Shown in pieces: positions 19,489 through 56,282 of a DNA stretch of 64,000 nucleotides (the first letter of the stretch is position 1; each line of letters begins with the position of its first letter). Where the stretch lies: contig JAFEBQ010000004.1 in NCBI GenBank assembly GCA_018242585.1, positions 35,558 to 99,557 of the forward strand, written 5' to 3'. Made by a program: the position numbers and the translations under genes. This stretch comes from Planctomycetota bacterium. Its GTDB lineage: Bacteria; Planctomycetota; Planctomycetia; Pirellulales; PNKZ01. The notes under the pieces are model-generated. The model was not told where the DNA came from. It worked only from the letters and a program-made list of their open reading frames with translations, and searched no databases.

Positions 19489-19552
19489 GGCGAGTTACTT
19501 TCGGCAGCACCTGCGCACCGCGCCACCATCCCTTGGCACGGTAACGCGAAGA

Positions 19553-19852: not shown

Positions 19853-19886
19853 GATCCGACTCTCCTCCGTTCAGGTTCCGAAACGA

Positions 19887-22041: not shown

Positions 22042-22056
22042 TGGCATATTTTTTGC
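22042..22056 (+). promoter_or_regulatory. candidate sigma-54 (-24/-12) promoter upstream of the giant gene
   Basis: TGGCAT(22042-22047)-atttt-TTGC(22053-22056), with correct GG/GC spacing. It is on the + strand, 355 nt upstream of ATG 22411. Confidence 0.5.
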
Positions 22057-22410: not shown

Positions 22411-22497
22411 ATGTACGTAAAGGCTTCGCGCCGCTGGGCGGCCGCGTGGTTGCTGCTCCTTTCGTTTTGCTCGGGGTTCGCGCCGCGCTTGCAGGCC
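22411..22497 (+). other. predicted Sec signal peptide of the giant protein
   Basis: Basic n-region KASRR, hydrophobic core WAAAWLLLLSFCSGF, and LQA-A cleavage-type site. Confidence 0.6.
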
Positions 22498-25400
22498 GCC
22501 CCGCCAGCTAGCGATTCCGTTCCCAACCTCGGCCAGCCGCGAGGGGAAGCGCGTTCCCCGCTAGTCTGGGGCTGGGACCGGCAATCATTGCGACCGATGG
22601 CGCCACAGCCCGCGGCGCCCTTGGCCATTGCCGAGCGCGCCGATTACCGCTATGGCATCGAAGTCGGAGCGCTCGGCATCGCGCGCGAAGCAACTCCGCC
22701 GCCCGCGCGTCGAGCGGCCGATGAAGCCGGCGTATTGACCGAGTCGTTGCTGCCGCTGCGCAGTGGCACGCTCCGCTTCCAAAATGGGCTGTCGCCGATC
22801 TTCACACGCGCGCGGACGCTAACCATCCCGCTGCCCGCTCAATCGCGGCCAGTGCTGTACGTGCCCAATGCCGAAGAATTGCAACAACTGCAACAGCAGG
22901 TGGCGAAGCAACAGGTCAAAGTTGACGCGCTGCGACAAAAAGCCGCACAACGGCGCCAAGCCGAGTTGACGGCGCGCCGCGGCGGTGGCAACGGTTGGTT
23001 CAGCGTCGGCTTCTTCATGCTTGCCGCGCTGGGCGTCGTCGTCATGTGGTGCTGGCTGGCTCGGAGCGCTCGTGTCGGCGGCCCAGCACCGGTCGGCGCA
23101 ATCGAAACCGACCAACTCGATGACGTCTGGGACGAGGAAGCGTTCTTTGAAGAATCGGCTGCGGCCGGTCAGTTCGCGGCTTTGGCCTTGGAGCTCAAGC
23201 GGGCCTTCCTCACCGGACAAGCGCGGATCGACGCCTGGCTCGAACGAGGTGGATTGTTGCGTTGGTGGGACGCGCTGATCGCCGCCTGCGGTTCCATGGC
23301 TCGCGACGCGGTGGATTTGGCGACCGGCACTCGATCAACGCGCCGTCAGATCGCGCGGCGCGTCGGCCACCACGCGCTGGTTTACTGGTGCGTCATCATG
23401 TCGGTGCTCATCGGCCTGCCCCAATCATCACGCGCCGGGACGTTTTACTGGGATCCAAATCAGAACGTGAACAACAGCAATCCCTACAGCCTGGCCACGC
23501 AGATCGGGCTGGGTGGGGCTGGCACGTGGGACAACTTGACCACGATGTGGTGGGATGGCTCGAGTGTTACCGACACCACTTGGAACAACGCCGGCAACGA
23601 CGTGGCGGTGTTCGGCGGGCTGGTCGGCGGGGCCGTCAACTTGCAGGCCGCGGGAATCACCGTCGGCGGCGTGACGTTCAACACCACGGGCTATACGGTC
23701 GGCAGCGCCAACACCCTGACCCTGGGGGGAACGACGGCCACGTTGACGGCCAACGCCAGCGCCACCATTTCGTCGATCCTGGCCGGTTCGGCGAACATGG
23801 TGAAGAACGGCGGTGGCACCTTGACCATCACGGGCGCTTCGACCGGCTTTACCGGCGGCACGACGATCACGGCTGGAACACTGCTGCTCAAACAAGTGAG
23901 CCTGGGCCCCACGGGCACGCCGACGACCATCACCCTGAACAACGGCGGCGTTCTGAACACGTTCGACGCGGCGGCGTTTACGTACACCAACTTGATCAAC
24001 GTCCAAGGGGCGGCCACGATCACCAATGGCGGAAACGTCCCCACCACGATCAGCGGCGGGCTGAACGTGGCCAATTCGCTCTTCACGATTGCTGGCTTTA
24101 GCACCTATACGTTCTCGGGCGCGACGACGCTGGCTGGGCCGATCACGACGTTGAATGTCGGCAACACGGTCTTCCTCTCGGGCAACGTCACCGGCGCGGT
24201 GCTCAACAAGACGGGCGGCGGCCCCTTGGTGCTAAACGGCGGCGCGGGGGTCAACGACAGTTGGTCGTTCACGCCGACGTTCCCCTCGGGCGGCTCGAAC
24301 CCGATGGCCGTGACCAATATCCTGCAAGGCCGCTTGTTATTTCAGGGGGCCAATTCGCAATTACAAGCGGGGACCGTCCTGGTCAATGCCGGCGGTGAAC
24401 TGGAAGTCAGTACTGGCGCGAATCTGAATGCGGGCACGAATATCGTGCTGGCTTCGAGTCTGAATGGCATGGGCGCCCTCGGCTTGAACTCGGCGGTGGA
24501 CATGAGCGCGACGCCGATCGCCAATTTTCAGAACGCGATCGTGGGCGTGTACGGCGGCGCGTTTCAGATCAATAGCTCGACCTATACCTTCCCCATCGAT
24601 CTGTCCAACTTCCTCTGGTCGACCGGGGCTTCGAGCAGCCCGATCTATCTCGGCTCGGCGGCGGGCGGCACGTTAACGGGCACCTTGTCCCCCGACCCGA
24701 CCGGCGCCTATCGCTTGGGTGGGAATCTGTTGAACAACACGCTGACCGTGTCGGGCAACAACACATTTACCAACGCCACGGCCCCGTTGATCATCGGCTC
24801 GCCGATCGGCAACGTGTCAGGCTACAACACCTCGACCGGCGCCACGGTCATCAGCGGCAACAACGCCGGCTACAGCGGCACGGTGACCGTCAACGGCCGC
24901 AGCCAACTGAACCTGGCCGGCACGACCAATCAGAACCCCATCGGCACCGGCGTGATCGATTTGCTCGGCCTGAGCACGTTGAACATCAACGGCAAGTACG
25001 TGGGCACCAGCCCGATGCTGGGTAACACCACCGTCAATGCCTATGCCGGCAGCACGATCCAGTTGAACAACACGGCGTTCACCACCGCCAACACGAACGT
25101 CCGCTTCGATCCGTCAACCGTGCTGAACATGTACGGTTCGACGCTGAATTTCACCGTCTCGTACACGGGTGCCTTGACCACTTCGGCCCAGCAGTTCGCG
25201 ACCTTGAACATGTCGGGCGCGGTCAGCCTTCAGGCCAGCACCACTACCACCAGCGGCACCGGCACGTTGACCTTCTCGGCCTTGAACCGTAACGACAACG
25301 CCACCTTGGCATTCCTGGCGTCGACGACGTCGTACGCCATCATCGGCCGCGCGACCAGCACTGGCAGCGTGCAAATCTTCGCCCCCAATCTCAACGGCAC

Positions 25401-28400
25401 CAGCGCCGCGCCGCCGGTGACCAATGGCATGGTCGCGCCGTGGATGTTTGACCAGACGAACCTGACGTTCATGAATTACGGCGCGACCGGCTTCATCGAC
25501 GCCCCCTGGACATCAACCCTGTCAACGGGCACGATCGGCGCGAATCCCACCGGGCTGGTCGTGGTCACCGCCAACATCAACACCGCCGCCGGCGCGTCGG
25601 CCTGGGCGTTCCGCACGGCCAACAACATCGGCGGTACGACCCTGACCATCGGCTCGGGTGGTTTGATTCAGACCGGCGGCACGATCTCGGCCCCGATCGT
25701 GTTCGGCTCGGTGGGGACGCCCGTCGAGGCGGTGCTTATCAACACAGGCAACGCGACCATCTCGGGGGCCATCACGGCCAACGGACTGACACGCACGGGC
25801 TCCACCGGTACCACGTTGACGATCAGCGGAGCCAACACCAACCTGACCGGCACCATCACCGTCAACGCCGGCACGTTGTCGGGCAGTCAGACCGGCTTGA
25901 ACTACCGGCCCATCTTGCTGAACGGCGGCACGATCGACTTTAACAATGGCACGGTCTTTTATCAGAACAACATCACGGTCAACGGCGACGCGCAGATGAG
26001 CGACTCGAACGGCGGTCAGCCGCGGTTGGGCACGTTGCAAGTAAACGCCCGGCCAAACGATCCGACCGACCCGATCGTGTTGTCGATGGTGAACCAGAAC
26101 TTCGACATCGGCACGACCACGCTCGGCGGCAACACGATCTTCAACGTCACCTCGGGCACCACCCGGATCGACGGGCCGTTGGTGGGCGAGGGCGTCTCGT
26201 TCACCAAGTACGGCGGCTCTTTCCTGTTCATCGACAGCACGACCAGCAGCTTCACCGGCTCGGTCACCGTTAACCAAGGGTTGTTGCTGCTGGCCACGGG
26301 GAACAATGCCGGAGACACACCGCTGGGTACGGCGGGTAGCACGGGGAACCCGATCGTCGTCAACCCGGGGGGCAACCTGGGGATCACCAATACGACCGTC
26401 TCCGGCGTGACGAACGTAACCTTGACCAGCGACACAGGCGGCCTGGCAGGCATCGGTCTGGCCTACTCGGGTAACGCGGGCTTGCCGTTGGCAAGCTCGC
26501 TGTCGTTGACGATCAACTCGGCCAATTACTCGGCGCCGTTTGGTGGCGTGGTGAGCATCAATGCCACCGGCTTCAGCGCGCCAATTGACTTTGGCAACAT
26601 CTTTGGCCAGTCCAATTGGTTCCTCGGCTCGAACTTTGGCGGCAGCTTCACCGGCACGCTCACTCCGGACACCAACGGGGTCTATCGCCTGGGGGGCGGC
26701 GGCAGCACGCTCACCCTGGTGGGCGGCAACAACCAAATCAACAACAGCACCTTCACCGGTGGCGTCACGGTGCAGTTCGGCGCCATCAGCAACTATTACC
26801 AGGCCAGCAGCGTCGCGCTGTTTAATGGCAGCGGCAACGTGCAAATCGCGGTGGCGAACAACTACAGCGGTTCGTCGATCATCAACGCGGGCGAGACCGT
26901 CTTCGCGGCCAACAACAACGCGCTTGGCACGAGCACCATCTTCTTTAACGGCGGTGGGCTGGCGGCCGATTCGTCCTCGGGGCTCCCCACGCTCAGCGCG
27001 CTGCGGACCATCACGAACACCATCGGGTTCTACGGCGACGCGGTGTTCACCAACACGCCCAGCTTGGTGATTGCCGGACAGGTGAACCTGGGCGACGGCA
27101 TCACGGGGGCGAACCGGACCTTGACCATCAACAATGCCGCCACTTCGAGCACGTCGGACGGCATGGTAATCATTACCGGCACGATCTCCGATGGCATCAA
27201 CGGCGCGGCCAACAACAGCCTGACCAAAGGTGGCGCCGGCGTGCTGGCCCTGACCAATACGAACAACAGTTGGACGGGTGCCACCAACATCAACCTCGGC
27301 GAAATCCTGGTCACCAACGACTCGCAAATCTCGTCGCAGTCGTTGATCACGATGAACGGCGGCGGTCTGGCGGCCTGGACAACCTCGTTCACCACCGACC
27401 GGCCTTATGTCCTGTACGGCCTCGGCCTGTTCGACGTGGGGGCGGGTGTCACCCTGACCCAGGCGCTCGACGTGGCCGGCAACAGCAACCTGAGCGGCGC
27501 CGGTGCGCTGAACAAGCTGGGCCTCGGCACGTTGCTGCTCAATGGCGTCAACTCGTACACCGGCATTACCACGATCAGCAACGGCATTCTGGCCGTCAGC
27601 GCCGACGTGAACCTGGGTGACGTGCCGACCAAGCAGTCGGTCACCATTCAGGGTGGCGTGTTGCAGGTGCTCAACACCACCGCGAATTTAGGCTCGTTCA
27701 CCACCTCGCGCAATATCGCCGTCACCACGTCGGGCGGAATCGATATCGCGGCCGGCGCGACCGCAACCGTTGCCGGCGTGGTAAGCGGCACGGGCTTGTT
27801 GACCAAGCTTGGCGGCGGCACGTTGTTCGTCGCGGGCAACAACACCAACACCGCGGTGGCGATCCAAAACGGCGTCCTGCAAGCCAGCGGCAGCCTGCCC
27901 TTCGCGGCCACGGCCACGCTCAGCTTCAACGGCGGCACCCTGTCGCTGAAGAACCTTGCCGCCAATCAAACCGTCACGACTTCGGGAGCTTCGACGTACG
28001 GCGGCGGCGGGCACTTGGAAATCATCGCGGGTGCCACCACGACGAGCACGTTTACCATGTCGGGCGCGCTGACTCGATCGGGCTTCGGCACGTTGATCCT
28101 CAACCCGGGGAGCACCAACACCCTGGGCGTGACGACGGCCGGCGGCGTGCGCTGGTTGCAGACGGGCAACATCAACGGCGTGGCCGCGGCGTCGGCCAAT
28201 GTGAGCGGCGTCGGCATCTTGCCCGCCAGCATCATCGTCGAGACCAATGGCATTGGAAACTTCGCGGTCTCCAGCGGCGGCACGGTGGGCGTCAGGTCGT
28301 ACTCGGGCGCCGTGGTGACCGATCTGGTGAGCACGCCGCTCCAGCCAACGGCCATCGCCTCGATCAGCGCGACCCAGAACCTGACCGGCACCAGCAGCAT

Positions 28401-49400: not shown

Positions 49401-52400
49401 AACCACGTTCGACACGGGTTCGGCCACCGTGGCCGGCAACGGCACGTTCACCACCGTGAACAGCGGCACGTTGACGGTCTCGGGCGTGGCGACCATCGGC
49501 ACCATCGCCGGCGGCACCGTCCGCCTGGGCGGCGCGACGGCGGCGATCACCACCCAGAGCGGCGGCCTGGTCACCATCCTCGGCAGCGGCACGTTGACCA
49601 CCTTCTCGGGCGGCACGTTGACGTTCGCCGGGGCTTCGACCACCAACGCGATCAGCAACCTGACGGCCTCGGGGACCGTGGTCGCCTCGACTTCGAGCAC
49701 GATCTTGAACGTGAGTGGCGGCAGCTTCGCCGGCACGATTACCGGCAGCGGTTCGGTCGCGGTGCTGGGCAGCTTCCGCCTGGGCGGCAGCACCCAGAGC
49801 TATACCGGCACGACCACTGTGTCGGGAACTGGCACCTTGAACCTGACCTTGTCGAGCGCCATGAGCGGCACGACGGTCAACGTGAACAACGGCGGCGTGC
49901 TGAACGTGCTGAACGGCACGTCGCTGGCGAGCGGCACGAACCTGACGGCCGACGGCACGGTCAGCTTCAGCGCCGATCAGACGCTGGCCTCGTTGACTGG
50001 TTCGACCGGCATCGTGAGCATCAGCGGCACGACGCTGACGATTGGCGGCGGCAGCTACGCCGGCCAGATCAACGGCGTCAGCGGCAACCTGGCGGTTACC
50101 GGCACAACGACCCTCAGCGGTGCGTTGGGATACGATGGCGCCACGACCGTTTCGGGCACCTTGGATCTGAACCTGGCCAGCGTGATGAGCAGCACCAGCG
50201 TCACCGTCTCGAATAGCGGCGTCCTGAACGTGCTAACCGCGAACTCGCTGGCTTCGACCACCGCCCTGACGAACAACGGCACGGTCAGCTTCAGCGCCTC
50301 GCAGGCCCTGGCCAGCTTGGACGGCGGCAGCAGCGCTACCTTGAGCCTGGGCGGCAACACGCTGACCATCTCGGGCGCGGGCGGCAGCTTTGGCGGCGCG
50401 ATCAACGGCACGGGCGTGGTGGCGATGAACAGCGCCAGCGGCGTGCAGACCTTGTCGGGCACGAGCAACTACACGGGCGGCACCAACCTGGTGGCCGGCA
50501 CGCTGGTCATCGTCGGCGCCAACGCCCTGGGGACCGGCACGTTGTCGTTCAACGGCGGCGTGCTCCGCTCGTACAATGACGTGGCGCTGACCAATCCGAT
50601 TAACATCAGCACCTCGAACGGTGGCTTCGACGTGGTTAACTCGGGCGAGAATGTCACGCTGAGCGGGACGATCTATGGCTCGGCCCAGTTGACCAAGTTG
50701 GGGGATGGCACCTTGTGGCTGACTGGCGCCAGTAACTCGACCGCCACCACGTCGGTCCAAAGCGGCACCGTCAGCGGCAACGCCAGCAACGCCGGCACGT
50801 CCGTGGAGGTCACCAGCGGCGCGACCTTCTCGTTCAACCAGACCGCGCCGGGCGCTTACACCGGCACGATCACCGGCACCGGTAACATCCAGGTCACCGG
50901 CGGCAGCACCCTGACCCTGTCGGGAGTCGGCAGCAGCTACAGCGGCACCACCGCCGTCAGCGGCGCCACGTTGTACGTCGGCAACGCCGGCAACCTGGGC
51001 ACGGGCGGTCTGGTGATCACCGACGGCACGCTGAGCGGCAACCTGACCGGCGCGATCATCTATCCGTCGCCGGTCACCTTGTCGGGGAGCAGCAACCTGG
51101 TGGTGCCGAACACCGGCGTCACCATCTCGCTGACCGGCACCGTGACCGGCAGCGGCAGCTTCAACTACACCGGCACCGGCAGCACGCTGGTCTTGGCCAA
51201 CAATAACATCGGAGCGTTGACCGCTTCGCTGGCCGTCACGGCTGGCACGCTGCAAGTCACCAACGCCGGCGGCTTGGGCACCGGCACCGTAACGGTGAGC
51301 GCCAACGGCCAGTTGGCGTTCTCGAACCTGGGCACGATCAGCACGTCGAACAACATCACGGTCTTCAGCACGACTTTGAACAGCGCTCCGGCCCTGTCGT
51401 TCTCGGGCAACAACACCTTCAACGGCAACTTGACGGTGGGTGGTTCGGCCGGCAGCGTGGCGGTCGTCGGCCTGGATTCGGGCAGCTTCACGACTTTGAG
51501 TGGCACGCTGACCAAGACCGACACGATCTTCGAGTTCAAGAACACCGGTTCGAGCGTCGCCAATCTGTTCATCAGCGGCACGCTGGTCAGCGTCAACCCG
51601 GGCGGCGCCTACGACAGCGACGTGATCTTCAACGGCAATAACCAAGGCCTGAACGTCACGCTCTCCAGTGCCCAGAGCTACTCGGGGCCGACCTACGTCA
51701 CCAATGGCAGCACCCTGGCCCTGGCCGCCAGTAACGTGTTGCCCACGCCGACCAATGGCGGCGCTTACACGGACATGACGTTGACCACTTCGGCCTCGGT
51801 CACGACGTTCGATCTGGCCGGCAACAGCGATACGGTTCGCAGCCTGTCGAGCTTGAACAGCGGCACCTCGACCTCGGGCAGCAACATCGTCACTGACTCG
51901 GTGGCGACGGCCAGCACGCTGACCATCGCCATGACCAACACCACCTTGGCCAACGGCGCCACGGGCCTGGCCACGTTCAACGGCGTGGTCAGTGGCAGCA
52001 ATCTGAGCATGGTGATGGCCGGCGCCAGCGGCACCGCCCAGGTAATGACCGGCGTGAACACCTACGGCGGTTCGACCACGATCTCGGGTGGCGCTTACGT
52101 GGTGAACGGCTCGATCGGCACGGGCAACGTCACGGTGATGAGCGGCTCGAACGGCGCGATCCTGTCGGGCAACGGCACCGTGAACGGCGCCGTGGTCGTG
52201 CAGCACGGCGCCACCAGCGCTCAGGACGGTGTCATCAGCCCGGGCCTGAATGGTGTGAATGGCGCGACGGCCGCTCAGCAGACCGGCGTCTTGACGGTCG
52301 CCAACAACCTGACGATCAACGGCACCTACCTGTGGGATGTCAACCCGAACACGAGTTCGACGAACATCGGCACGGCCGGCACGAACTACGACCAGATCCA

Positions 52401-52839
52401 GCTCACCGGTGGCTCGAATGCCTTGACGGTGGGGGGCGCCTCGACCTTCGCCCTGAACTTCCTGAACAGCTCAGCTCCGCAGACCAGCGGCTTGCAAACC
52501 GCCGCCTTCTGGCAACAGTCGGAATCCTGGCACGTCGTGACCACGTCGAACTCCTCGGGGGTCTCGGGCTCGTTCTTCTCATCGATCACGGGCTACGGCA
52601 CCAACGGCTCGATCGCTGGCGTAGGCGGCTTCGCCTTCTCGACGACTGGCAACGACCTGGTCCTCACCTGGACGCCGGTGCCCGAACCGGGCAGCTTGAG
52701 TTTGGCGGCCCTGGCTGGCTTGGGTCTGGGCGCTTACGGCTGGCGTCGTCGCCGCCGCGCGGCCGACGAAGCCGCCAAGCCGGCGGTTGACGATGCGGCC
52801 ACGGCCGGCGAAGTGGTTGATCCGACGATGGACGCTTAG
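22411..52839 (+). CDS. giant (10,142 aa) secreted PATR-type beta-strand-repeat protein with C-terminal PEP-CTERM anchor
   Basis: Single uninterrupted ORF of 30,429 nt. N-terminal signal MYVKASRRWAAAWLLLLSFCSGFAPRLQA/A. More than 9,700 aa of G/T/N/S/A/L/V-rich repeats follow, with recurring K.G.GTL.L.G.N.Y.G.T.I..GTL units (autotransporter-associated beta strand repeat, PF12951/TIGR02601-like). The C-terminus is VPEPGSLSLAALAGLGLGAYGWRRRRR. Confidence 0.9.
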   Translation: MYVKASRRWAAAWLLLLSFCSGFAPRLQAAPPASDSVPNLGQPRGEARSPLVWGWDRQSLRPMAPQPAAPLAIAERADYRYGIEVGALGIAREATPPPARRAADEAGVLTESLLPLRSGTLRFQNGLSPIFTRARTLTIPLPAQSRPVLYVPNAEELQQLQQQVAKQQVKVDALRQKAAQRRQAELTARRGGGNGWFSVGFFMLAALGVVVMWCWLARSARVGGPAPVGAIETDQLDDVWDEEAFFEESAAAGQFAALALELKRAFLTGQARIDAWLERGGLLRWWDALIAACGSMARDAVDLATGTRSTRRQIARRVGHHALVYWCVIMSVLIGLPQSSRAGTFYWDPNQNVNNSNPYSLATQIGLGGAGTWDNLTTMWWDGSSVTDTTWNNAGNDVAVFGGLVGGAVNLQAAGITVGGVTFNTTGYTVGSANTLTLGGTTATLTANASATISSILAGSANMVKNGGGTLTITGASTGFTGGTTITAGTLLLKQVSLGPTGTPTTITLNNGGVLNTFDAAAFTYTNLINVQGAATITNGGNVPTTISGGLNVANSLFTIAGFSTYTFSGATTLAGPITTLNVGNTVFLSGNVTGAVLNKTGGGPLVLNGGAGVNDSWSFTPTFPSGGSNPMAVTNILQGRLLFQGANSQLQAGTVLVNAGGELEVSTGANLNAGTNIVLASSLNGMGALGLNSAVDMSATPIANFQNAIVGVYGGAFQINSSTYTFPIDLSNFLWSTGASSSPIYLGSAAGGTLTGTLSPDPTGAYRLGGNLLNNTLTVSGNNTFTNATAPLIIGSPIGNVSGYNTSTGATVISGNNAGYSGTVTVNGRSQLNLAGTTNQNPIGTGVIDLLGLSTLNINGKYVGTSPMLGNTTVNAYAGSTIQLNNTAFTTANTNVRFDPSTVLNMYGSTLNFTVSYTGALTTSAQQFATLNMSGAVSLQASTTTTSGTGTLTFSALNRNDNATLAFLASTTSYAIIGRATSTGSVQIFAPNLNGTSAAPPVTNGMVAPWMFDQTNLTFMNYGATGFIDAPWTSTLSTGTIGANPTGLVVVTANINTAAGASAWAFRTANNIGGTTLTIGSGGLIQTGGTISAPIVFGSVGTPVEAVLINTGNATISGAITANGLTRTGSTGTTLTISGANTNLTGTITVNAGTLSGSQTGLNYRPILLNGGTIDFNNGTVFYQNNITVNGDAQMSDSNGGQPRLGTLQVNARPNDPTDPIVLSMVNQNFDIGTTTLGGNTIFNVTSGTTRIDGPLVGEGVSFTKYGGSFLFIDSTTSSFTGSVTVNQGLLLLATGNNAGDTPLGTAGSTGNPIVVNPGGNLGITNTTVSGVTNVTLTSDTGGLAGIGLAYSGNAGLPLASSLSLTINSANYSAPFGGVVSINATGFSAPIDFGNIFGQSNWFLGSNFGGSFTGTLTPDTNGVYRLGGGGSTLTLVGGNNQINNSTFTGGVTVQFGAISNYYQASSVALFNGSGNVQIAVANNYSGSSIINAGETVFAANNNALGTSTIFFNGGGLAADSSSGLPTLSALRTITNTIGFYGDAVFTNTPSLVIAGQVNLGDGITGANRTLTINNAATSSTSDGMVIITGTISDGINGAANNSLTKGGAGVLALTNTNNSWTGATNINLGEILVTNDSQISSQSLITMNGGGLAAWTTSFTTDRPYVLYGLGLFDVGAGVTLTQALDVAGNSNLSGAGALNKLGLGTLLLNGVNSYTGITTISNGILAVSADVNLGDVPTKQSVTIQGGVLQVLNTTANLGSFTTSRNIAVTTSGGIDIAAGATATVAGVVSGTGLLTKLGGGTLFVAGNNTNTAVAIQNGVLQASGSLPFAATATLSFNGGTLSLKNLAANQTVTTSGASTYGGGGHLEIIAGATTTSTFTMSGALTRSGFGTLILNPGSTNTLGVTTAGGVRWLQTGNINGVAAASANVSGVGILPASIIVETNGIGNFAVSSGGTVGVRSYSGAVVTDLVSTPLQPTAIASISATQNLTGTSSIYALATSADITGGTLLVESLSNTNQGGILVNGNVTIGANLIADATYATGTTTSGEVLLYVAPGFTASVTGNVVANSFTKFGTGTLNLSSADFSVLGAVTVQEGTLRIGAGAGNLFSPGQTQLFLNNQGTLDLNGQSLMVAGLGNTAAVTGGIAGGIVGNSSNTNATLRVNSPNGAVTTFGGVIQDNLGSGTGKVTLNKNGQGTLVLSNFSTSNDQASQNSFTGGVNLTAGTLTIQDPQALGGANGTTPGAVNLYGGTLNLNSNGGGFNSAIILGNPTTTGLTLNLLGSAAINVDRTTASTSYTGNYFQIGTLNLGENTLSVTGADSYGLQVQDAVNILGNYAVIAPGTGYPSGTLSLAGVISGGALDIKALGNYTFTTVIAGNSNTYTGGTNILTGALQIVPTSGTPLGSGRVEVFPGAVLRLSSTFGNDGTIGGAALQVLSTKSTMGVVALDTSIDPSTLLTSSNFNSAYSVLLGISTPYFSQPLDMSTIGNGRAFLGGALNQEVDYTAATLGAGAAEPIITTLTGVSTPVYRLGGGVNSLALVGPDNLLTDKGGVPTFVQFGNPNSNVASVTLGGGTIYIRESNNYTGGTQIAKSTTVEIDVGSGPAGQTPLGTGTVEVYGTLQAGLPGGYNGVASFFNAATGTNSVNIQMRPGGSLLIFDAPGNVPGGQGRWGDNVPLDLNGGTFRFLGASSYDSSETIGVITVNKGSTLFVNRGAAGNAALTIGGTNATTAGLVRGTGGTLQIQVSTSSFHALGQADGVGTLSGQSDRLIVNGGISGIGGLSGVTNTGSGVIAGGVGMAAPWIVDLTNLTYVTYDPSGLGTGFQDVLPNNASPAAGQVGYSQIVNGAVFGAGASPGQDTIDVEVAATTLSSNIDAWAMRIGAQTTINPNGAFNQITLESGGLLVAAASTLGAATTSTGMLGLPAPMTLYFGNSSTSTPTEAIIYNSTTVTINAQIVANGLTKFGAGQLDIFSSNPSLSGTITINQGNLMVLNSISGIGTTVAGALNGQNVVLNGGGLVIDAFVGNASTATQASNIRATSYLGSNVTVNGDAAITNNGQSTLQRINALTLADLGPHSPINLTIQGIAVMGPVTLGANNNNIIASFAGMANEIFYGQVSGGMLSKWGNGTLTLVNPTNNYSGGTIVNGDAQGTATSVLASMTKTGTPFGTGPISVNPGGMLRIMDPSNIANQTVTLNSDGIGLAGLALAYNGPAPTITTSGTAQNGQVLVQSSGDFGGVLALDINFYTQAINQATLGNGKMFLGTSTSNTYFNATLTPGAPDSGTTPVYRLASGGNQGTLSLGGGFFENVLTAASSPTGTVSVQIGAATGADPTSTLATYVNGNGSLALNNRNNLTAGSIVQINGGAVPVISQNNTNGANLNLGNNLALGQATLVFNGGNLTDSTSIVLPAVNNLVLLADTMTASNGSEIDILGNVNMSPSGVGATRTWNMTSSTLAIDGVVSGVAGSDLIKTGNGLLLLGGQNTYLGTTTINAGTVLVSTNVLANQNGALGNSDTPVILGNAGTNTAGSMGLAGQVTFGRDIQTTPNGTASNNLYGQALAYANITGGINLTGTMSVLQFSSTTNTGGILDLQGAISGTGALSLGAQVSTQSGTVRISGSTNGLSGNNFTGGVTLAGGRLQIGADTYYTGSTNSGTILSGPLGTGTLTLSGTGVVLEAYGAARLIMNPLGALSSTSATTVAFGGHNSLTFANSTAFNINSSASSLARTFNVQTTQGVVTIMAPLTQTGTTSLTKTGAGTLVLSGANAFSGGITISQGTLEVFADNNLGAVTSTSNNMTLGSANNYAQLMLGGGSSLVWNSGLGNSNRVLTLAGPSSLNLLAGSSLNINTKVTAAAANPLSVIGPGTLSLNNTTNAIVNLIVGGDPSGGGIVQTTATLGTPFTTGAGNNVTLYSGELFVNNSAGAAAQSITIGALNYAGGGYVAMAMGSVATTTSTLIATALTRQAQGTIIISPSALANLGLTEKFATGTAQSVTNGMLTLPSIVVQDVTASPVTAGGIVYGDLNFAAYNASSGSFVVNTTSTTSSLDASNATSLAALIASTTVGTAAGQTIDIYAVQTSANISPFDPTNVLRINNGGLILNGTTSAPLVSANLFFGTSSSATEALVYVRGGQTGFSTISGNITATNFTKAGAGSLVLSGTSNLLTSSTTTSVATVAIDQGVLQFAGQSAVFSSTFSSGASASGLVNIAPVDQGTLDLNGQNLTFAGLGFANSSTSTGIVTNSAGTTASLTLNGYNQTTTFNGALSGNLNLNKTGSGTLVLGNNSSYSGTTTIYAGQIFSASSSYSANGAVQIQGVTSLGTGPIVLAGGALTISAVLGATAIAGNEVEDNISVLQIGPNNGYDVTVAALNNYGAPNTTSNISATGAAAWQVINSLNVLAPVVSFGGSGSNILVRGGATFSGTVAGMNVVMTDGAGGTVTSNSAVINVVNQVVLGGPVSAPGSVITKIGGSTLFLTNTGDQGNAANNVGAWQVEVGTIETRVTGGGVSPLGPNATLILNGASWNLRDDGDNTNNSQLLTEFQNNTIQIGSLGSITSMNYQSSANATIDSRTLSLGNNKTVLINNLVFGGPLGTAFLSPTGANNYSYQINNLSLQGRDAALSMGLSMTVNNLSGNGTLFRQGGATLYINGNNSTTGNTGGTVMAGGTLAFGSLMGTNLIQLNNSATLGPGNITIQPGAIVRFNSPTNLANAGQLVDVRSNLSNLGILGIGDNSPIASYNLRTPMAAGAYNSSMVLSLGTGGGILAINTQNYSQAIDLSRIGDGSWYLGSTSNGVGLNGSYDATSLGVGAAYNFGTSSSPINQAAYRLGGGGASLLINNSVLVGNAGVVVGLPRTNAANAVGNGTGTVILGSAQSYTGPTEVYSGSTLEFRGQLSTSQIETFGLVTAGGAGGTFVNSTGTGNIAVLARPGSEIRLDNQFDLLPNSATNGRWFDTAPVNLDSTILRLIGNFTTDIRETVGQVTVTGGSLIIANRSFNGRATELDIAGVTRSTNVAVTGSSGVYTIAGNNAMLSIEGAANTLGADERVIITTPANVPTVTNGMVAPWMVDRNNSQFLTYSTTDLGFIDAGFTLSMSGGLAGGITGGTDRAYFTASTTFSGGSTIDVYAARVDASLSLSSSFNGEQLILESGGLLVGGAAAPTILPQLVFGTPTASTEAMISIGNSGSANLTLGDITNPNSGAGQLLATSISKFGDGVLTLVANQPNFTGNIAVDRGTVSLQSVAGGASTAGGSNVAPSFTAGAVVLNGFNTTLSLGLGGANGTASTFSNSIVLGPNNPLATLAVLSAVGQTTTTSTAFLTGGLLFGGAPGEQGQTLQVTNPSGTTNSIQINGLVDLGTGGNVTVATTTTATLTLAGQVVGSSTLIKNGAGFGSTGVLALLNTANLNTYTGGTVLVSGTMFVYGSNSANTATYSALATGGLGSGAVTLDGGTLSLRIAADATTTFKTITFANDLVVNGNSTIVVDRGGTGIDTTSTTKNLAFNSLSIGSQNLTLLGANAFSLGVMGTTTLSGSPILTLASSDLVLNGSVTDNGSNQALIKNGPNNLWLNNGTATFTGTYSSGTTMNVSSTLGLYVGQTISGGTLPAGEVITAIGTNTITLAIAPSGAFSGQSMSATNGASYTASGGIDVNMGFLRFGNSSASGGNPNPFATAGTGTLTINPGAGIIIEGLGNLNSGQVVDVRSIASSLAQFVIHGNFDPTSYISNTSSGVLALYSTTFTTATGTTALNMSAIGDGTFYLGASQGGSVYSLSGLLPGRNTDGQSDIYRLGGGGTTLTLSGGIAGPLLADQSVGIPPVQVVIGSLATNGTGTVVLNQTNAYTGGTIISRGSGAIIVSGGANGMPFGGAVAPSFTATYDGNFSSLVAVSSGVGLTQNQVLNGAGLDPNTSIVTFSGLSLATTTATGSINAFNITVGSTAGLYPGMLLTSGAGVPADTTIVAISGTTVTLSNQLTAALSSASISVSPTIVLSTMPSGGAFTGALTAGGYTATSDGSITLTVSSTLGLAVGQTIVGPGIPTGDTITAIGAGTVTLAVAPSAPFTSQSVSTGGTGNVDLFGTLTLQGTGFTGGSLENSTGTANSNNLILHPGAQLSFNNGTSGNIVSTSSVSDRFNANASLALYGTTVSISSPSNASSSMYIGGVSFLGGSRMAAISSGTGSATLTISGTNTFTRVGNGTMVFLDTAAGRLGNTTGNNREQIIVNGGVTNISGTVVNGMLPAYYIAGNDNTFVTYGAGGFTRAAYSNTVPAGTFTLGANEFAGTAVANVTGSVTLSDNPVLYAMAMGAVTINSGAGQLNTIQLNGTTASPQSGGGLLSYGSGTINANLNFNNQEALIYNAAGATLTMNGVIQGASTITKFGTGTLLVNADQSSAALGPGNGYANGWVVNEGTLQANQYGALGDAVPTNTVQLIGSASGAATLSLQLNVNGFQNATYSSGTIIAVDNAAINWQSNGNDRVSTVADITIQSTGGALEPAQFQLQMNNRLRSILQAGVLTIQAIDTNGAVIPNGTASAIVTVSYSTTLPGSTTTTLTAGVGATGMSVASLAGGANTTLMKWGSGELFIRGDSSSAFSGSVLIQEGAIQVNSNGALGTGAVTVSRYGTLDINVANWTPTNSSITYSTGSLVRLSADGALAGASSWSLGGATLQVNNDQGVASPNLYASPVTIRLNGGSIEGFIPYESNIIQSNLSQGMVYRTLGSNLTIALDGNSFIGQNNSQGVNGLDNGAQANATSPFTQAGAGAILVVNGAITDGSFGGASLTKQGFDTVILAGLNTYSGGTFINNGMLRIGQTNALSTLGNLYTTSTGVFDLNGFDQTVAMLSSQTTPTTGVNPNGANGFVFNSATTINTLTIGLSPSTSATYAGLIQGNIALNITAGETVLANANTYVGGTTISGGILTVTNTSGSGAGTGPVTITSGALQGTGIITGPVTLGAAGSINPGTSAFTGAGHLTVSSLISNGGTLNFRLNDTSASSDQLIIAGGVAALTFSALTTIGLSNPNGLAGGKTYALINYGGGALDPAQFNMLQLQSSTLLINTTNYNATLVNDTANHSIDVLLSAPTNLTWYGVGTLSSSTQLGTPGVWDINTSNNFYQGTLSGGSVVYQDPNVNDVTFDDHAVSISGLTTVTLIGNVTPLTVTFNNNANNYVLTGTGSIIGITSGGPLTKQGLGSATIGTANTFNSGASIEKGTLLVAASTSLDGGSTVIQSGPLGTGTITLASGAAIGADNSSTQTLANNIVARGAITITGSGNLVFDQQGLTGVNQNYFYLGDNTTLTVNSTATISDIITDQAYGTAGSGGANQGFALTIAGSSTLNLGATPSYTGGTVVNGGTLNVLASGSLPSASNLTVGASGTVVLNNIGQSLATVASDGALTFAATSGVNTMASLSGAGTTNLAANTIITSLNSSGIIAVNSGTTTTVTVSNGIFSGALNGNTNLYKGGAASDLLTISGTGNYSGITTIAAGTLNVTSLADGGQVSSVGASGNQSNNLVINNNAALQYTGTSNSSTDRLFTIAGANATLDASGAGAVVFSNAGSLNFSNNGATVLNLTGNSAQLNVLTPIITNPTSGLTSVMKSGLGTWELAGLNTYGGVTTISSGILAVTTMSAGGLASSVGASSNAAASLVIGGATSAGTLQYLGNGDSTDRLFTIGASSGTIDASGAGLLNFTSGGAIVFQGAANSTHTITLTGTGSGALSPVIGNFGSGATAVTKNGAGQWALAALNTYTGVTSINGGTLSVSVLANGGANSNIGASSNAAGNLVIGSGGALQFIGSSGGSTDRLLTVNPGNAVLDASGSVALQFTNSGAVALSGTNTARTITFTGTSVGSLINTFAPTIGNNGTGATSVTKDGTNLWALTGSNSYTGVTRILNGTLSMSVVANGGTSSPLGAASNASTNLVIDGGALQYTGGAAFTDRLFTIGTGGATLDASGSGLLNLNNGSALTLLGANTQRTLTLTGAGSGLLAAIIPDNGTGTTPQLSIYKDGIGSWALTSNGSTYTGTVTINAGTLSVSTLANGGVASSLGKSSNAASNLLIGNNAALQYTGGNITTDRLFTIAGATAIVDASGSGTLTFSNAGAVAFGTVDQAATLQITGTGNAVFSTGLNDNGAGSVSLLKAGTGTWTLLGNNGYSGTTTISGGTLQIGNGGVTGTLSGTSGVTGTGGTLTFNRSGSIEFDAPIGGAVNVVQANAGTLILTGANGYTGTTTITSGTLQIGNGGASGSIANTSAVTDNGTLVFNTSGDTSLAAAISGTGAVIQNGSGTVTLSGANTYSGITTINGGTLSVASLAVGGLASGIGRSGSQSGNLVINGGALQYTGNGGITDRLFTVGTAGATLDASGPGLLQIANPGAIAYAGTGTNVTLTLTGSGTAALAAAINDIAGAQTAVNVAGGSWTLSSNTSAYSGGTTIGGNVYVTNTSGSALGSGAVTINAGGNLSGTGIVSGAVTLNAGGTIAAGILGTPGTLTLGSLATGSTGVVNINFALHDYQGVQGANSLLAITSATLPVFSTTTSVNITGLSGFGLGTYQLFSYAASGLLSAGSMANLQIGNVTGAGSFSYAFQNVANQIDLVVSAAVLNLTWTGADTPAQWDLTTTNNWLNGASPATYIDGANVTFADSPTTTSVTVATTVTPGSITFTNTTTAYTITGTGTIAGATTALQANGSGMITINNLNTYGGGTTVNGGTMVVGSSTQVTSGTLASGPLGLGTITLSDGVSLGGDGQTLANALAIAGGVTFTGSGNLTFDPQSLSAANTVTLLGNATLTVSNLTTTINDVITDLGNSRSLTKAGSGTLEIGAIAQYTGATIVNAGTLSVLSTGGLASGNNLTVAASAAAQFANANQTLGTANISGALTFSAAGASTIGSLTGSGTVTVTNASAISLAVNGGSFGGAINGSGALVFTGDTTLSGASGYTGGTTVSGGVLNVLSTGSLASTGNLTLTGTAAAIFANVGQQLAIVNNGSSTAGALSFSATSGTITLTQLTGSGNTLFASNANVTTFDTGSATVAGNGTFTTVNSGTLTVSGVATIGTIAGGTVRLGGATAAITTQSGGLVTILGSGTLTTFSGGTLTFAGASTTNAISNLTASGTVVASTSSTILNVSGGSFAGTITGSGSVAVLGSFRLGGSTQSYTGTTTVSGTGTLNLTLSSAMSGTTVNVNNGGVLNVLNGTSLASGTNLTADGTVSFSADQTLASLTGSTGIVSISGTTLTIGGGSYAGQINGVSGNLAVTGTTTLSGALGYDGATTVSGTLDLNLASVMSSTSVTVSNSGVLNVLTANSLASTTALTNNGTVSFSASQALASLDGGSSATLSLGGNTLTISGAGGSFGGAINGTGVVAMNSASGVQTLSGTSNYTGGTNLVAGTLVIVGANALGTGTLSFNGGVLRSYNDVALTNPINISTSNGGFDVVNSGENVTLSGTIYGSAQLTKLGDGTLWLTGASNSTATTSVQSGTVSGNASNAGTSVEVTSGATFSFNQTAPGAYTGTITGTGNIQVTGGSTLTLSGVGSSYSGTTAVSGATLYVGNAGNLGTGGLVITDGTLSGNLTGAIIYPSPVTLSGSSNLVVPNTGVTISLTGTVTGSGSFNYTGTGSTLVLANNNIGALTASLAVTAGTLQVTNAGGLGTGTVTVSANGQLAFSNLGTISTSNNITVFSTTLNSAPALSFSGNNTFNGNLTVGGSAGSVAVVGLDSGSFTTLSGTLTKTDTIFEFKNTGSSVANLFISGTLVSVNPGGAYDSDVIFNGNNQGLNVTLSSAQSYSGPTYVTNGSTLALAASNVLPTPTNGGAYTDMTLTTSASVTTFDLAGNSDTVRSLSSLNSGTSTSGSNIVTDSVATASTLTIAMTNTTLANGATGLATFNGVVSGSNLSMVMAGASGTAQVMTGVNTYGGSTTISGGAYVVNGSIGTGNVTVMSGSNGAILSGNGTVNGAVVVQHGATSAQDGVISPGLNGVNGATAAQQTGVLTVANNLTINGTYLWDVNPNTSSTNIGTAGTNYDQIQLTGGSNALTVGGASTFALNFLNSSAPQTSGLQTAAFWQQSESWHVVTTSNSSGVSGSFFSSITGYGTNGSIAGVGGFAFSTTGNDLVLTWTPVPEPGSLSLAALAGLGLGAYGWRRRRRAADEAAKPAVDDAATAGEVVDPTMDA
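39115..40575 (+). repeat. intragenic island of four ~55-60-aa non-PATR repeats (S.[LA]GL.VGQ.I.G.G.P.G..ITAI....[IV]TL)
   Basis: Copies start at ~39115, ~39995, ~40147 and ~40396. Example: VSSTLGLYVGQTISGGTLPAGEVITAIGTNTITLAIAPSGAFSGQSMS versus VSSTLGLAVGQTIVGPGIPTGDTITAIGAGTVTLAVAPSAPFTSQSVS. Confidence 0.7.
44785..47650 (+). repeat. intragenic tandem array of ~400-410-nt (~135-aa) units
   Basis: Unit starts (N.Y.G[VI]T.I..GTL.V..LA.GG...S..G.SSNAA.NLVI...ALQY.G....TDRLFT......LDASG.G.L.F) are at ~44785, 45186, 45595, 46006 and 46411, with a variant GTLQIGNGG unit at 46804, then 47227. Copies are diverged at the nucleotide level. Confidence 0.8.
52675..52758 (+). other. PEP-CTERM sorting motif (PVPEP + TM helix + RRRRR)
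   Basis: ccg gtg ccc gaa ccg at 52675-52689, hydrophobic GSLSLAALAGLGLGAYGW, RRRRR at 52744-52758, followed by a 26-aa acidic tail. Confidence 0.8.
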
Positions 52840-56262: not shown

Positions 56263-56282
56263 TCGAAAGGCGTCTGCCGCGC

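What the first reader, a model, noticed from the sequence alone, without database searches (positions are those of the whole stretch)
22411..52839. Single 30.4-kb ORF: a 10,142-aa PEP-CTERM-tailed beta-strand-repeat giant protein of unknown function
One + strand frame runs 30,429 nt without a stop, which is 47.5% of the window. The product begins with a canonical signal peptide and ends with a PEP-CTERM motif. In between, it is almost entirely G/T/N/S/A/L/V-rich repeats of the PATR (autotransporter-associated beta strand) type, very poor in charged residues, Cys and His. I see no enzymatic or known ligand-binding domain. Bacterial proteins above 10,000 aa are very rare, and to my knowledge none of this PATR + PEP-CTERM class has a demonstrated function. 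Possibilities include a fibre, an adhesin, an S-layer-like coat, or a cell-cell contact role. This is the most likely candidate for an undescribed system in the window, especially with the regulatory context reported separately.
Basis: partly seen in the sequence, partly recalled or inferred. Interest (0 to 1): 0.85.

Follow-up and report, generated by a model that had tools for sequence, protein, structure and literature searches.

The report
Giant planctomycete beta-helix surface protein
The 30.4-kb open reading frame is real and encodes a roughly 1-megadalton rod-like surface protein of a planctomycete. It belongs to a common, already annotated family (autotransporter-type beta-helix with a PEP-CTERM sorting tail), so it is a very large member of a known kind, not a new system.

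Summary
Observation confirmed: one ORF, 22411-52839 (+), 10,142 codons, intact. GC3 is 0.87. There are no near-identical DNA repeats that could have collapsed in assembly. Pfam and NCBIfam find only PATR (PF12951/TIGR02601) and a C-terminal PEP-CTERM (PF07589/TIGR02595), both above curated cut-offs.

The source is an NCBI Planctomycetota MAG (neighbours MBS0207687.1, MBS0207708.1 and MBS0207709.1 match exactly). AlphaFold2 models aa 7440-8000 as an all-beta solenoid (pLDDT 95.7). A family profile matches solved autotransporter passenger beta-helices (Ssp 6e-16, IcsA 4e-10). There is no beta-barrel, TPS domain or enzyme domain.

Among the 120 best relatives, 39 carry PEP-CTERM tails and about 29 carry autotransporter barrels, so the architecture is common.

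- PATR motifs (about 53) cover only about 14% of the protein.
- Giant genes are a documented planctomycete trait.
- The family's usual signal peptide and mature start lie at aa ~296-343. They follow a 300-aa orphan extension that has its own signal peptide, a coiled coil and a membrane helix, and no relatives anywhere.

The C-terminal third is two 1,510-aa protein-sized units fused head to tail.

Most likely: a Sec-exported, exosortase-processed fibre or adhesin about 0.2 µm long. This function is inferred, not shown.

The parts
22411..52839 (+). Whole ORF: 10,142 aa, about 997 kDa
22411..22497 (+). First signal-peptide-like segment, aa 1-29 (MYVKASRRWAAAWLLLLSFCSGFAPRLQA)
   Evidence: Sequence. 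AF2 helix at aa 3-20.
22498..23295 (+). Orphan N-terminal extension, aa 30-295. It has a disordered Pro/Ala/Arg-rich stretch (30-148), a confident long helix or coiled coil (154-190), a membrane helix (196-221) and a helical acidic region.
   Evidence: AF2; hydropathy. No homologue was found in 5.8e9 proteins, in 1.84e9 representatives (only two weak fragmentary hits that I read as low-complexity matches), in genome contigs, in metagenome contigs, or in Pfam/NCBIfam. Codon usage best fits coding in this frame, but by a weak margin.
23296..23436 (+). Family-typical extended signal peptide, aa 296-342 (MARDAVDLATGTRSTRRQIARRVGHHALVYWCVIMSVLIGLPQSSRA). ATG at codon 296 is a possible alternative start. 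Predicted cleavage is SRA|GT.
   Evidence: It aligns in position with the signal peptides of stand-alone relatives. Hydrophobic segment at 318-336. Start codons listed.
23437..23820 (+). Mature N-terminal start module, aa 343-470 (GTFYWDPNQN...GGAGTWDN...)
   Evidence: It aligns to residues ~17-60 onward of independent relatives, E 1e-8 to 5e-17. Beta-helix from aa 344, with pLDDT above 90 at aa 390-490.
25558..38160 (+). Old collinear internal duplication: aa ~1050-3000 against ~2860-5250 (offsets +1,811 to +2,290; 28-42% identity). It includes a roughly 550-aa module with the APPVTNGMVAPWMVD motif, which also recurs near aa 950 just upstream of this span.
39109..40590 (+). Three mini-domain repeats of about 60 aa (STLGLxVGQTIxGxGIPxGxxITAIGxxTVTLA) at aa ~5567-5630, 5912-5975 and 5997-6060. 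Their fold is unknown.
43258..44010 (+). Junction J1 (boundary aa 7066|7067): the end module of one unit is joined directly to a mature-N-terminus motif
44341..47610 (+). Array of 136-aa (408-nt) PATR-containing modules, aa ~7311-8400. The tile aa 7440-8000 is modelled as a beta-helix.
47788..48540 (+). Junction J2 (boundary aa 8578|8579)
48145..52674 (+). Last protein-sized unit, aa 8579-10088 (1,510 aa), ending in the pre-PEP end module
52675..52758 (+). PEP-CTERM sorting signal, aa 10089-10116 (PVPEPGSLSLAALAGLGLGAYGWRRRRR)
   Evidence: PF07589 23.8-24.5 bits against cut-off 20.7; TIGR02595 19.7 bits against cut-off 16
52759..52836 (+). 26-aa acidic tail after the Arg cluster (AADEAAKPAVDDAATAGEVVDPTMDA)
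   Evidence: Sequence. Tails of 0-30 aa occur in relatives.
20880..21560 (-). Divergently oriented LuxR/GerE-type HTH gene. The HTH is at aa 113-167 of the longest ORF, and the true start is probably internal. It is a possible regulator, not shown to be one.
   Evidence: PF00196, E 1.7e-15. EpsA model scores only 22 bits against cut-off 170.
22042..22057 (+). Sigma-54 -24/-12-like match, TGGCATATTTTTTGCC, 369 nt upstream of the ATG. Not statistically supported.
   Evidence: 11 such matches in the window against 13.5 expected

Best explanation
The ORF encodes a cell-envelope or surface fibre of a planctomycete, of about 1 MDa.

Shown:
- An intact 10,142-codon ORF.
- N-terminal signal-peptide-like segments.
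- A body that is homologous in sequence to the passenger beta-helix of classical (type Va) autotransporters, and is modelled as a beta solenoid wherever tested.
- A C-terminal PEP-CTERM sorting signal in place of an autotransporter beta-barrel.
- No catalytic or known binding domain.

Inferred mechanism:
1. The precursor is exported by Sec.
2. Signal peptidase cuts after SRA (aa 342), whichever start codon is used. The mature protein therefore begins GTFYWD, as in stand-alone relatives.
3. The Cys-free, acidic (pI about 4.3), Thr/Ser/Asn/Gly-rich chain folds into a long right-handed beta-helix. At about 6 coils per 136 aa this gives about 0.2 µm if continuous.
4. The PEP-CTERM helix holds the C-terminus in the inner membrane until an exosortase, encoded elsewhere in the genome, cleaves it and hands the protein to the cell surface or exopolysaccharide layer.
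5. There it acts as an adhesin or matrix fibre, as shown genetically for other PEP-CTERM proteins in flocculation and in adhesion to polysaccharide.

Origin: the gene grew by internal duplication and by in-frame, head-to-tail fusion of protein-sized units of about 1,500 aa, with loss of the PEP-CTERM tail and signal peptide between them.
For: - ORF and coding signal.
- Domains: PATR and PEP-CTERM above curated cut-offs and nothing else significant.
- Fold: AF2 of aa 7440-8000 has pLDDT 95.7 and pTM 0.92, all short strands. The best Foldseek PDB matches are all beta-helices (Ag43, TibA, EtpA, IcsA, Pet), though weak. AF2 of aa 344-610 is again a beta-helix.
- Homology to solved passengers: the family profile matches Ssp 8e7f at E 6e-16, over a region that contains its PATR; IcsA 5ke1 at 4e-10; and fusolisin at 7e-6 (PMC9977779).
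- Relatives: 2,075 PATR proteins. Of the best 120, about 29 carry the PF03797 barrel and 39 carry PEP-CTERM-like ends.
- Mature start: aa 343-470 aligns to the first mature residues of relatives.
- Fused units: junction motifs and collinear paralogy.
- Source is Planctomycetota. PEP-CTERM and EpsH are known in Rhodopirellula (PMC1569441).
- PEP-CTERM and exosortase genetics: PepA in floc formation (PMC9850573); CrtB in adhesion to polysaccharide and in biofilm formation (PMC12188702).
Against: - No expression, localisation or processing data exist for this gene.
- No exosortase lies in the 64-kb window.
- How a 1-MDa beta-helix would cross the outer membrane without a barrel is unknown.
- Only about 8% of the protein was modelled. 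A recurring 550-aa module has no solved relative. A continuous rod is therefore an extrapolation.
- The true start codon is unresolved.
Confidence: 0.75

Rival explanations
1. Two products from one ORF. The first ~300 codons encode a separate orphan membrane protein, or are not translated at all. The giant protein starts at ATG codon 296 (nt 23296), with the family-typical 47-aa signal peptide.
For: - Relatives begin exactly at the position equivalent to aa ~296-343: signal peptide, then (T/Y)YWD or TW.G.
- The N-extension has no relative anywhere.
- It differs sharply in composition: all 4 Cys, and 74 of the protein's 567 charged residues within the first 400 aa.
- It has lower GC3 (0.74 against 0.87) and a weak coding margin.
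Against: - There is no stop codon between codon 1 and codon 296. The chance of that is about 4e-4 for random sequence of this G+C.
- Codon usage still fits the coding frame best in each third of the extension, whereas the intergenic DNA upstream is flat.
- The topology of the full-length reading is self-consistent: signal peptide, periplasmic coiled coil, membrane helix, cytoplasmic helices, then a second export helix.
Confidence: 0.4
2. The protein is a regular coat (S-layer-like), or is released into the medium as a soluble exoprotein. In that case it is not an anchored fibre or adhesin.
For: - PEP-CTERM proteins are found in exoproteomes (PMC12188702).
- The acidic, Thr/Ser-rich composition resembles that of glycosylated surface-layer proteins (PMC1569441).
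Against: - A beta-helix about 0.2 µm long is the geometry of a fibre, not of a lattice subunit.
- The closest characterised homologues are adhesins or stalks of autotransporters.
- No S-layer domain was found.
Confidence: 0.12
3. Assembly artefact: a chimeric or collapsed repeat region of a metagenome bin that happens to stay in frame, or several adjacent PATR genes joined by errors.
For: - The source is a MAG.
- The C-terminal third looks like protein-sized units joined end to end.
Against: - No DNA repeat exceeds 88% identity or 202 nt, so nothing could collapse.
- G+C is uniform at 0.63-0.66, and GC3 and codon usage are uniform across the ORF.
- The junctions lack both the PEP-CTERM tail and the signal peptide, and stay in frame. 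Random misjoins would not produce that.
Confidence: 0.05
4. A contact-dependent toxin-delivery or two-partner-secretion (TpsA/CdiA-like) or type I secreted RTX adhesin.
For: Giant beta-helical filaments are typical of TpsA/CdiA. A HlyD-family gene lies at 11409-12311.
Against: - There is no TPS domain, RTX repeat, toxin domain or C-terminal T1SS signal.
- The C-terminus is a PEP-CTERM.
- The HlyD gene is 10 kb away on the other strand, with no ABC transporter or TolC gene beside it.
Confidence: 0.02

Closest known systems
PATR / 'autotransporter-associated beta strand repeat-containing' proteins with a PEP-CTERM tail (PF12951 + PF07589), e.g. P0025 (Planctomycetota MAG, 1,487 aa), P0049 (Candidatus Scalindua), P0065 (Chthoniobacteraceae), P0057
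   Same: - Same N-terminal mature motif: giant GTFYWDPNQN...GGAGTWDN against P0025 QTYYWDTNPN...GGAGTWNN.
- Same 136-aa PATR modules.
- Same end module: giant NDLVLTWT|PVPEP against P0057 NDLLLTWTASA|IPEP.
- Same sorting signal.
   Different: - It is six to seven times longer than any relative listed. All listed relatives are at most 1,669 aa, which may be a limit of the search tool.
- It is built from fused units.
- It has an orphan 300-aa extension in front of the usual signal peptide.
Classical (type Va) autotransporter passengers with PATR: Ssp (8e7f), IcsA (5ke1), Ag43 (7koh), ShdA, Brucella BmaC
   Same: Homologous beta-helical stalk sequence: profile E 6e-16 and 4e-10; ShdA model partial hit. 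Same fold class. These proteins have adhesin roles.
   Different: There is no PF03797 beta-barrel translocator and no protease or other head domain. Anchoring and export must follow the exosortase route, not BAM-assisted autotransport.
Giant genes of Planctomycetes (Fuerstiella marisgermanici, Gimesia maris, Rhodopirellula; Reva & Tümmler 2008; Kohn et al. 2016)
   Same: Same phylum and the same size class (above 30 kb). These genes are also predicted to encode surface or adhesion proteins and are also untested (PMC5177795, PMC12673574).
   Different: Those papers give no domain-level description that I could compare. Whether their largest genes are of the PATR/PEP-CTERM type was not checked here.
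PEP-CTERM proteins with genetic evidence: PepA of Aquincola and Zoogloea; CrtB substrates of Nostoc
   Same: Same sorting signal. The role proposed here (holding cells and exopolysaccharide together) is the role shown for them (PMC9850573, PMC12188702).
   Different: I did not compare their sequences with this protein. Their regulators (RpoN and PrsT for PepA; PMC9850573) are not identifiable here.

Membership tests
PATR / TIGR02601 beta-strand-repeat proteins | One or more matches to PF12951 / TIGR02601 above the curated cut-off | tested here: met
   PF12951 reaches up to 131.9 bits (cut-off 27) and is found in every 1,000-aa tile of the first tiling. TIGR02601 reaches up to 97.5 bits (cut-off 19.85). 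About 53 units by an iterated in-house HMM.
PATR / TIGR02601 beta-strand-repeat proteins | The repeats sit in a right-handed parallel beta-helix | tested here: met
   AF2 pLDDT 95.7 for aa 7440-8000, and a beta-helix from aa 344. The profile matches the beta-helical stalks of Ssp and IcsA. Only two segments were modelled.
PEP-CTERM / exosortase substrates | C-terminal PEP motif, then a hydrophobic helix, then a basic cluster, matching TIGR02595 / PF07589 | tested here: met
   VPEP-GSLSLAALAGLGLGAYGW-RRRRR. PF07589 scores 23.8-24.5 against 20.7; TIGR02595 scores 19.7 against 16.
PEP-CTERM / exosortase substrates | The motif lies at the extreme C-terminus | tested here: inconclusive
   26 residues follow the Arg cluster. 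Relatives show tails of 0-30 aa, median about 6.
PEP-CTERM / exosortase substrates | N-terminal signal peptide | tested here: met
   Two candidates, aa 1-29 and aa 296-342. No dedicated predictor was available.
PEP-CTERM / exosortase substrates | An exosortase (EpsH/Xrt) and several PEP-CTERM paralogues in the same genome | not testable with these tools
   Only the 64-kb window is available. It holds no exosortase and no second PEP-CTERM ORF.
PEP-CTERM regulatory module PrsK/PrsR (and EpsA) | Histidine kinase, sigma-54 response regulator or LuxR-type regulator reaching the curated scores of TIGR02916 / TIGR02915 / TIGR03020 | tested here: not met
   TIGR02915 scores 335 against 502.6, and generic NtrC scores higher. 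TIGR02916 scores 82 against 300. TIGR03020 scores 22 against 170.
Classical autotransporter (type Va) | C-terminal 12-stranded beta-barrel translocator (PF03797 / TIGR01414) | tested here: not met
   No match in either tiling. The C-terminus is a PEP-CTERM.
Two-partner secretion TpsA / CdiA | N-terminal TPS (haemagglutination activity) domain and a TpsB partner | tested here: not met
   No such domain in aa 1-1000, and no Omp85-type gene among the neighbours scanned.
Type I secreted RTX giant adhesins (LapA/SiiE type) | RTX or Ig-like repeats and an adjacent ABC/MFP/TolC operon | tested here: not met
   No RTX or Ig repeat families. Only a lone HlyD-family gene 10 kb away.

The most novel reading that the evidence does not exclude
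The ORF is a natural 'polyprotein'. An orphan inner-membrane protein (aa 30-342: periplasmic coiled coil, membrane helix, cytoplasmic helices) would be made in 1:1 ratio with the fibre and split from it by signal peptidase at an internal signal peptide. It would then serve as a dedicated export or anchoring partner. The fibre itself, about 0.2 µm long and anchored by exosortase, would be a component of the planctomycete surface fibres, whose proteins I believe are still unidentified. Examples are the fibres that emerge from crateriform structures and are implicated in polysaccharide capture.
Probability: 0.07. Interest if true: 0.7.

Novelty: new member of a known kind. Interest (0 to 1): 0.3.

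Why it matters
As a family member it adds little. PATR/PEP-CTERM proteins are annotated by the thousand, and giant genes are a recognised planctomycete trait.

It is still a clean example for three open questions:
- How does the exosortase pathway move a 1-MDa beta-helix to the surface without the beta-barrel that homologous autotransporter passengers use?
- How do giant genes grow? Here the junctions show protein-sized units fused head to tail, with the sorting tail and signal peptide deleted.
- Do lineage-specific N-terminal extensions in front of a canonical signal peptide have a function?

If the product turned out to be a planctomycete surface fibre, it would give a molecular handle on structures known so far only from microscopy.

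Tried and rejected
- Source look-ups. Exact look-ups by my own ORF calls for sulfatases 1 and 2 failed. Contig look-ups for the exact NCBI proteins P0123 and P0243 also failed. The source was finally identified through a DUF1501 homologue search and a cluster look-up.
- The giant protein starting at ATG codons 203, 212, 296 or 330 is not in the 15-billion-protein collection. The full length could not be submitted as a DNA reference (30,000-nt limit), and I did not submit it as plain protein letters. All 120 listed relatives are at most 1,669 aa, which suggests a length limit in that search, so this absence tells us little.
- The only close relative contig (85% identical DUF1501 protein, L002) ends 16 kb before the region of interest.
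- phmmer and composition-adjusted BLAST of the junction modules against the protein's own ends were uninformative because of compositional bias. Comparison with stand-alone relatives worked instead.
- Sigma-54 promoter idea: a -24/-12-like site lies upstream, but such sites are no more frequent than in shuffled sequence.
- The PrsK/PrsR/EpsA idea for the neighbouring regulators was rejected on curated scores.
- No Rfam family or tRNA in the window.
- No terminator between the ORF and the sulfatase genes, and one promoter-like site before them, so an operon link is undecided.
- The recurring 550-aa 'APWMVD' module has no solved relative.
Full report
**1. The observation**

The window contains one ORF at 22411-52839 on the + strand. 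It starts with ATG, runs 10,142 codons, and has an in-frame TAG 6 nt upstream of the ATG. With roughly 0.027 stop codons per random codon at this G+C, such a frame cannot be open by chance.

G+C at the three codon positions is 0.51/0.55/0.87 over the ORF. The 850 bp upstream are flat at 0.5-0.6. A codon-usage model trained on 15 confident genes of the window prefers the annotated frame throughout.

The product is about 997 kDa.

Repeat collapse is an unlikely source of error. Internal protein repeats are 25-53% identical. The best DNA repeats are 60-88% identical over at most 202 nt, and the only tandem array has a 408-nt period at 62-75% identity. G+C is uniform across the ORF.

**2. Domains**

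Pfam on ten 1,000-aa tiles, and again on tiles offset by 500 aa, finds only PATR (PF12951, up to 131.9 bits, cut-off 27) and PEP-CTERM (PF07589, 23.8-24.5 bits, cut-off 20.7). NCBIfam gives TIGR02601, TIGR02595 (19.7 bits, cut-off 16) and a partial, far sub-threshold match to the ShdA autotransporter adhesin. Relaxed scans of the unusual segments add nothing.

There is no beta-barrel translocator, TPS domain, RTX repeat, enzyme or lectin family.

'Almost entirely PATR repeats' does not hold. An HMM iterated on the protein itself finds about 53 PATR units covering about 1,460 residues (14%), spaced 90-400 aa apart.

**3. Source and context**

The DUF1501 protein at 4680-6179 is 100% identical to MBS0207687.1. 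The sulfatase at 56283-57839 is MBS0207708.1, and the oxidoreductase at 57949-59241 is MBS0207709.1. All three come from a 188-kb contig of an NCBI MAG labelled Planctomycetes/Planctomycetota bacterium. The next-best DUF1501 hits are 85% (an unnamed read-archive contig) and 77% (Pirellulales).

The neighbours fit a planctomycete:
- PSCyt/PSD1 and DUF1501 gene pairs.
- Three sulfatases directly downstream.
- A Ser/Thr kinase and an ECF sigma factor.
- A response regulator with an HD domain.
- A histidine kinase and sigma-54 activator pair.
- A small LuxR/GerE-type gene divergent from the giant ORF.

The kinase, the activator and the LuxR protein do not reach the curated scores of the PEP-CTERM-associated regulators PrsK, PrsR and EpsA. 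A sigma-54-like -24/-12 match lies 369 nt upstream of the ATG, but such matches are no more frequent in the window than in shuffled sequence. No exosortase and no second PEP-CTERM ORF lie in the window. There are no Rfam families or tRNAs.

**4. Fold and family**

A 961-aa tile (aa 7440-8400) finds 2,075 relatives, all PATR proteins. The best is a partial Prosthecobacter protein at 42% identity.

Among the best 120:
- About 29 carry the autotransporter barrel PF03797 (Alphaproteobacteria, Achromobacter).
- 39 end in a PEP-CTERM-like signal. These include entries named Planctomycetota, Candidatus Scalindua and Chthoniobacteraceae.

The same passenger-type body is therefore combined in nature with either of two C-terminal devices, and the PEP-CTERM combination is common.

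Sequence evidence is stronger. A profile of the alignment matches three solved autotransporter passengers:
- The beta-helical stalk of the Serratia autotransporter Ssp (8e7f, E 6e-16, chain residues 428-580). This stretch includes the PATR that the authors place at residues 464-496 (PMC9977779).
- IcsA (5ke1, E 4e-10).
- Fusolisin (8axg, E 7e-6).

A second model, of aa 1-700, shows a beta-helix from aa 344, with pLDDT above 90 at aa 390-490. Residue-class autocorrelation over the mature part peaks at lag 2 and at lags 19-21, as expected for strands and coils.

Extrapolating about 22.7 residues and 0.48 nm per coil to 9,746 residues gives about 0.2 µm. That figure is an inference. Only two segments were modelled. 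About half of the sequence did not match the 122 relatives I held. A recurring 550-aa module with the motif APPVTNGMVAPWMVD has no solved relative.

**5. The N-terminus is not what it seems**

Residues 343-470 (GTFYWDPNQN...GGAGTWDN...TWNNAGNDVAVFGG...) align to the very first mature residues of independent relatives, with E from 1e-8 to 5e-17 and subject positions from ~17-60. For example, P0025 from a Planctomycetota MAG reads ...SSVFAQ|QTYYWDTNPN...GGAGTWNN.

The stretch just before it looks like the long signal peptides of those relatives: aa 296-342, MARDAVDLATGTRSTRRQIARRVGHHALVYWCVIMSVLIGLPQSSRA. Codon 296 is an ATG.

The 295 residues in front of it have these features:
- Their own signal-peptide-like start (aa 1-29).
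- A stretch predicted disordered (aa 20-148).
- A confident long helix (aa 154-190, pLDDT 89-95).
- A strongly hydrophobic helix (aa 196-221).
- Further helices up to aa 335.
- All four cysteines of the protein and a large share of its charged residues.

No relative of this extension was found in:
- 5.8 billion proteins by word-indexed search.
- 1.84 billion representatives by full HMMER, which returned only two weak, fragmentary hits that I read as low-complexity matches.
- GTDB genomes.
- JGI metagenomes.
- Pfam and NCBIfam.

Its codon usage still fits 'coding in this frame' best, but with a smaller margin than normal genes, and GC3 is 0.74 against 0.87 for the body.

Two readings remain open:
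- A single precursor with three membrane-spanning segments, in which signal peptidase cuts at SRA|GT.
- Initiation at codon 296, with the upstream part a separate or unused coding remnant.

Either way, the mature fibre most likely begins at G343.

**6. How the gene became giant**

Best-paralogue mapping shows two patterns:
- An old collinear duplication: aa ~1050-3000 against ~2860-5250, offsets +1,811 to +2,290.
- A younger series at the C-terminal end: aa 6900-7350 against 8410-8830 (offset ~+1,500) and aa 6750-6950 against 9720-9930 (offset ~+2,970).

At aa 7066|7067 and 8578|8579, the last strand of an 'end module' is followed directly by the motif that opens stand-alone relatives after their signal peptide:
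- End-module strands: ...HSIDVLLSA and ...NQIDLVVSA. Compare the true C-terminus ...GNDLVLTWT|PVPEP, and P0057 ...GNDLLLTWTASA|IPEP.
- Opening motifs: NLTWYGVG...WD..NNF and LNLTWTGAD...WD..NNW. Compare P0101 QTTYTWTGAGDG..ANW and P0027 AQIVWTGASS..ANW.

The two units so defined are 1,512 and 1,510 aa, the size of stand-alone relatives (1,300-1,670 aa). The simplest reading is an in-frame fusion of tandem paralogous genes, with loss of the PEP-CTERM tail and signal peptide at each joint.

The start motif also occurs inside some 1,350-aa relatives, so such joints are a recurrent feature of the family.

**7. Mechanism**

Shown: the sequence features listed above.

Established for the families involved:
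- PEP-CTERM is a C-terminal sorting signal made of a PEP motif, a membrane helix and a basic cluster. It is found only in bacteria that have an outer membrane, exopolysaccharide genes and an EpsH-family exosortase. Rhodopirellula baltica, a planctomycete, has 12 such proteins and one EpsH, and no PrsK/PrsR (PMC1569441).
- Genetic work links PEP-CTERM proteins and exosortases to flocculation, retention of exopolysaccharide, adhesion to polysaccharide and biofilm formation (PMC9850573, PMC12188702).
- PATR lies in the beta-helical stalk of autotransporters and promotes efficient passenger secretion (PMC9977779).

Inferred for this protein:
1. Sec export.
2. Signal-peptidase cleavage.
3. Folding into a long acidic beta-helix (mature part pI about 4.3, net charge -148, no Cys).
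4. C-terminal cleavage by an exosortase encoded elsewhere.
5. Display at the surface or in the matrix, as a fibre or adhesin.

N-x-S/T sequons are only mildly enriched: 247 against 222 ± 13 in shuffles. How the chain crosses the outer membrane is unknown.

**8. Novelty**

The class is known and publicly annotated. Giant genes are a documented planctomycete trait:
- All 29 genomes examined had genes above 5 kb, and 15 had genes above 20 kb. Genes above 30 kb were seen only in Fuerstiella and Gimesia at that time (PMC5177795; reviewed in PMC12673574).
- Proteins of at least 10,000 aa are reported as frequent in PVC phyla (bioRxiv 10.1101/2023.11.21.568195).

No paper in the searched library mentions both the passenger-associated transport repeat and PEP-CTERM, so 'function not demonstrated' stands.

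The verdict is a very large new member of a known kind. It has two features worth a note: the fused-unit architecture and the orphan N-terminal extension.

Noticed in passing
window 22411-23436 (aa 1-342 of the ORF): An orphan N-terminal extension lies in front of the family's usual signal peptide. It has its own signal peptide, a confident 37-residue helix, a strong membrane helix and all four Cys of the protein. No relative was found in any database searched.
   Followed up: yes
window 43606-43611 and 48142-48147 (aa 7066|7067 and 8578|8579): Head-to-tail joints between protein-sized units of about 1,510 aa. An end-module strand runs straight into a mature-N-terminus motif, as if tandem genes had fused and lost the PEP-CTERM tail and signal peptide.
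   Followed up: yes
window 25258-26910, 30643-32310, 34411-36060, 37408-39060: Four copies of a roughly 550-aa module with the conserved motif APPVTNGMVAPWMVDxTNLTFxTY..GFIDAP. It has no Pfam family and no solved relative by sequence, and its fold was not modelled.
   Followed up: partly
window 39109-39300, 40144-40335, 40399-40590: Three mini-domains of about 60 aa (STLGLxVGQTIxGxGIPxGxxITAIGxxTVTLA) are inserted in the repeat body. A similar stretch occurs in relative P0001. These are the only candidates for a non-solenoid insert.
   Followed up: partly
window 53081-57839 (+): Three sulfatase genes in a row lie 241 nt downstream of the giant ORF on the same strand; the first two overlap by 4 nt. 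No terminator-like site lies between the ORF and the first sulfatase, and one sigma-70-like site sits at 52997-53025. A functional link (binding and desulfation of sulfated polysaccharides) is possible, but sulfatases are very abundant in planctomycetes.
   Followed up: partly
window 17152-17167 (-) and 18117-18132 (+): The two best sigma-54 -24/-12-like matches in the window (10 of 11 consensus positions). One lies 84 nt upstream of the start of the histidine kinase / sigma-54 activator operon, which hints at autoregulation. The total count of such sites is not above chance.
   Followed up: partly
window 17100-20870: A stretch of lower G+C (0.58-0.63) holds only small ORFs with no family hits. 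They include a hydrophobic 150-aa ORF (19036-19488, -) and a 99-aa ORF (19553-19852, -) that by eye resembles DUF883/ElaB-type tail-anchored proteins.
   Followed up: no
window 1584-6179 and L002: PSCyt1/PSCyt2/PSD1 and DUF1501 gene pairs occur here. One copy carries a Golvesin C-terminal domain. The pairs are duplicated in tandem in the 85%-identical relative contig. This is a typical planctomycete gene pair of unknown function.
   Followed up: no
output: All 120 listed relatives are at most 1,669 aa long, although longer PATR proteins exist. The homologue search probably has a length bias or cap, so the lack of giant relatives in that list does not show they are rare.
   Followed up: no
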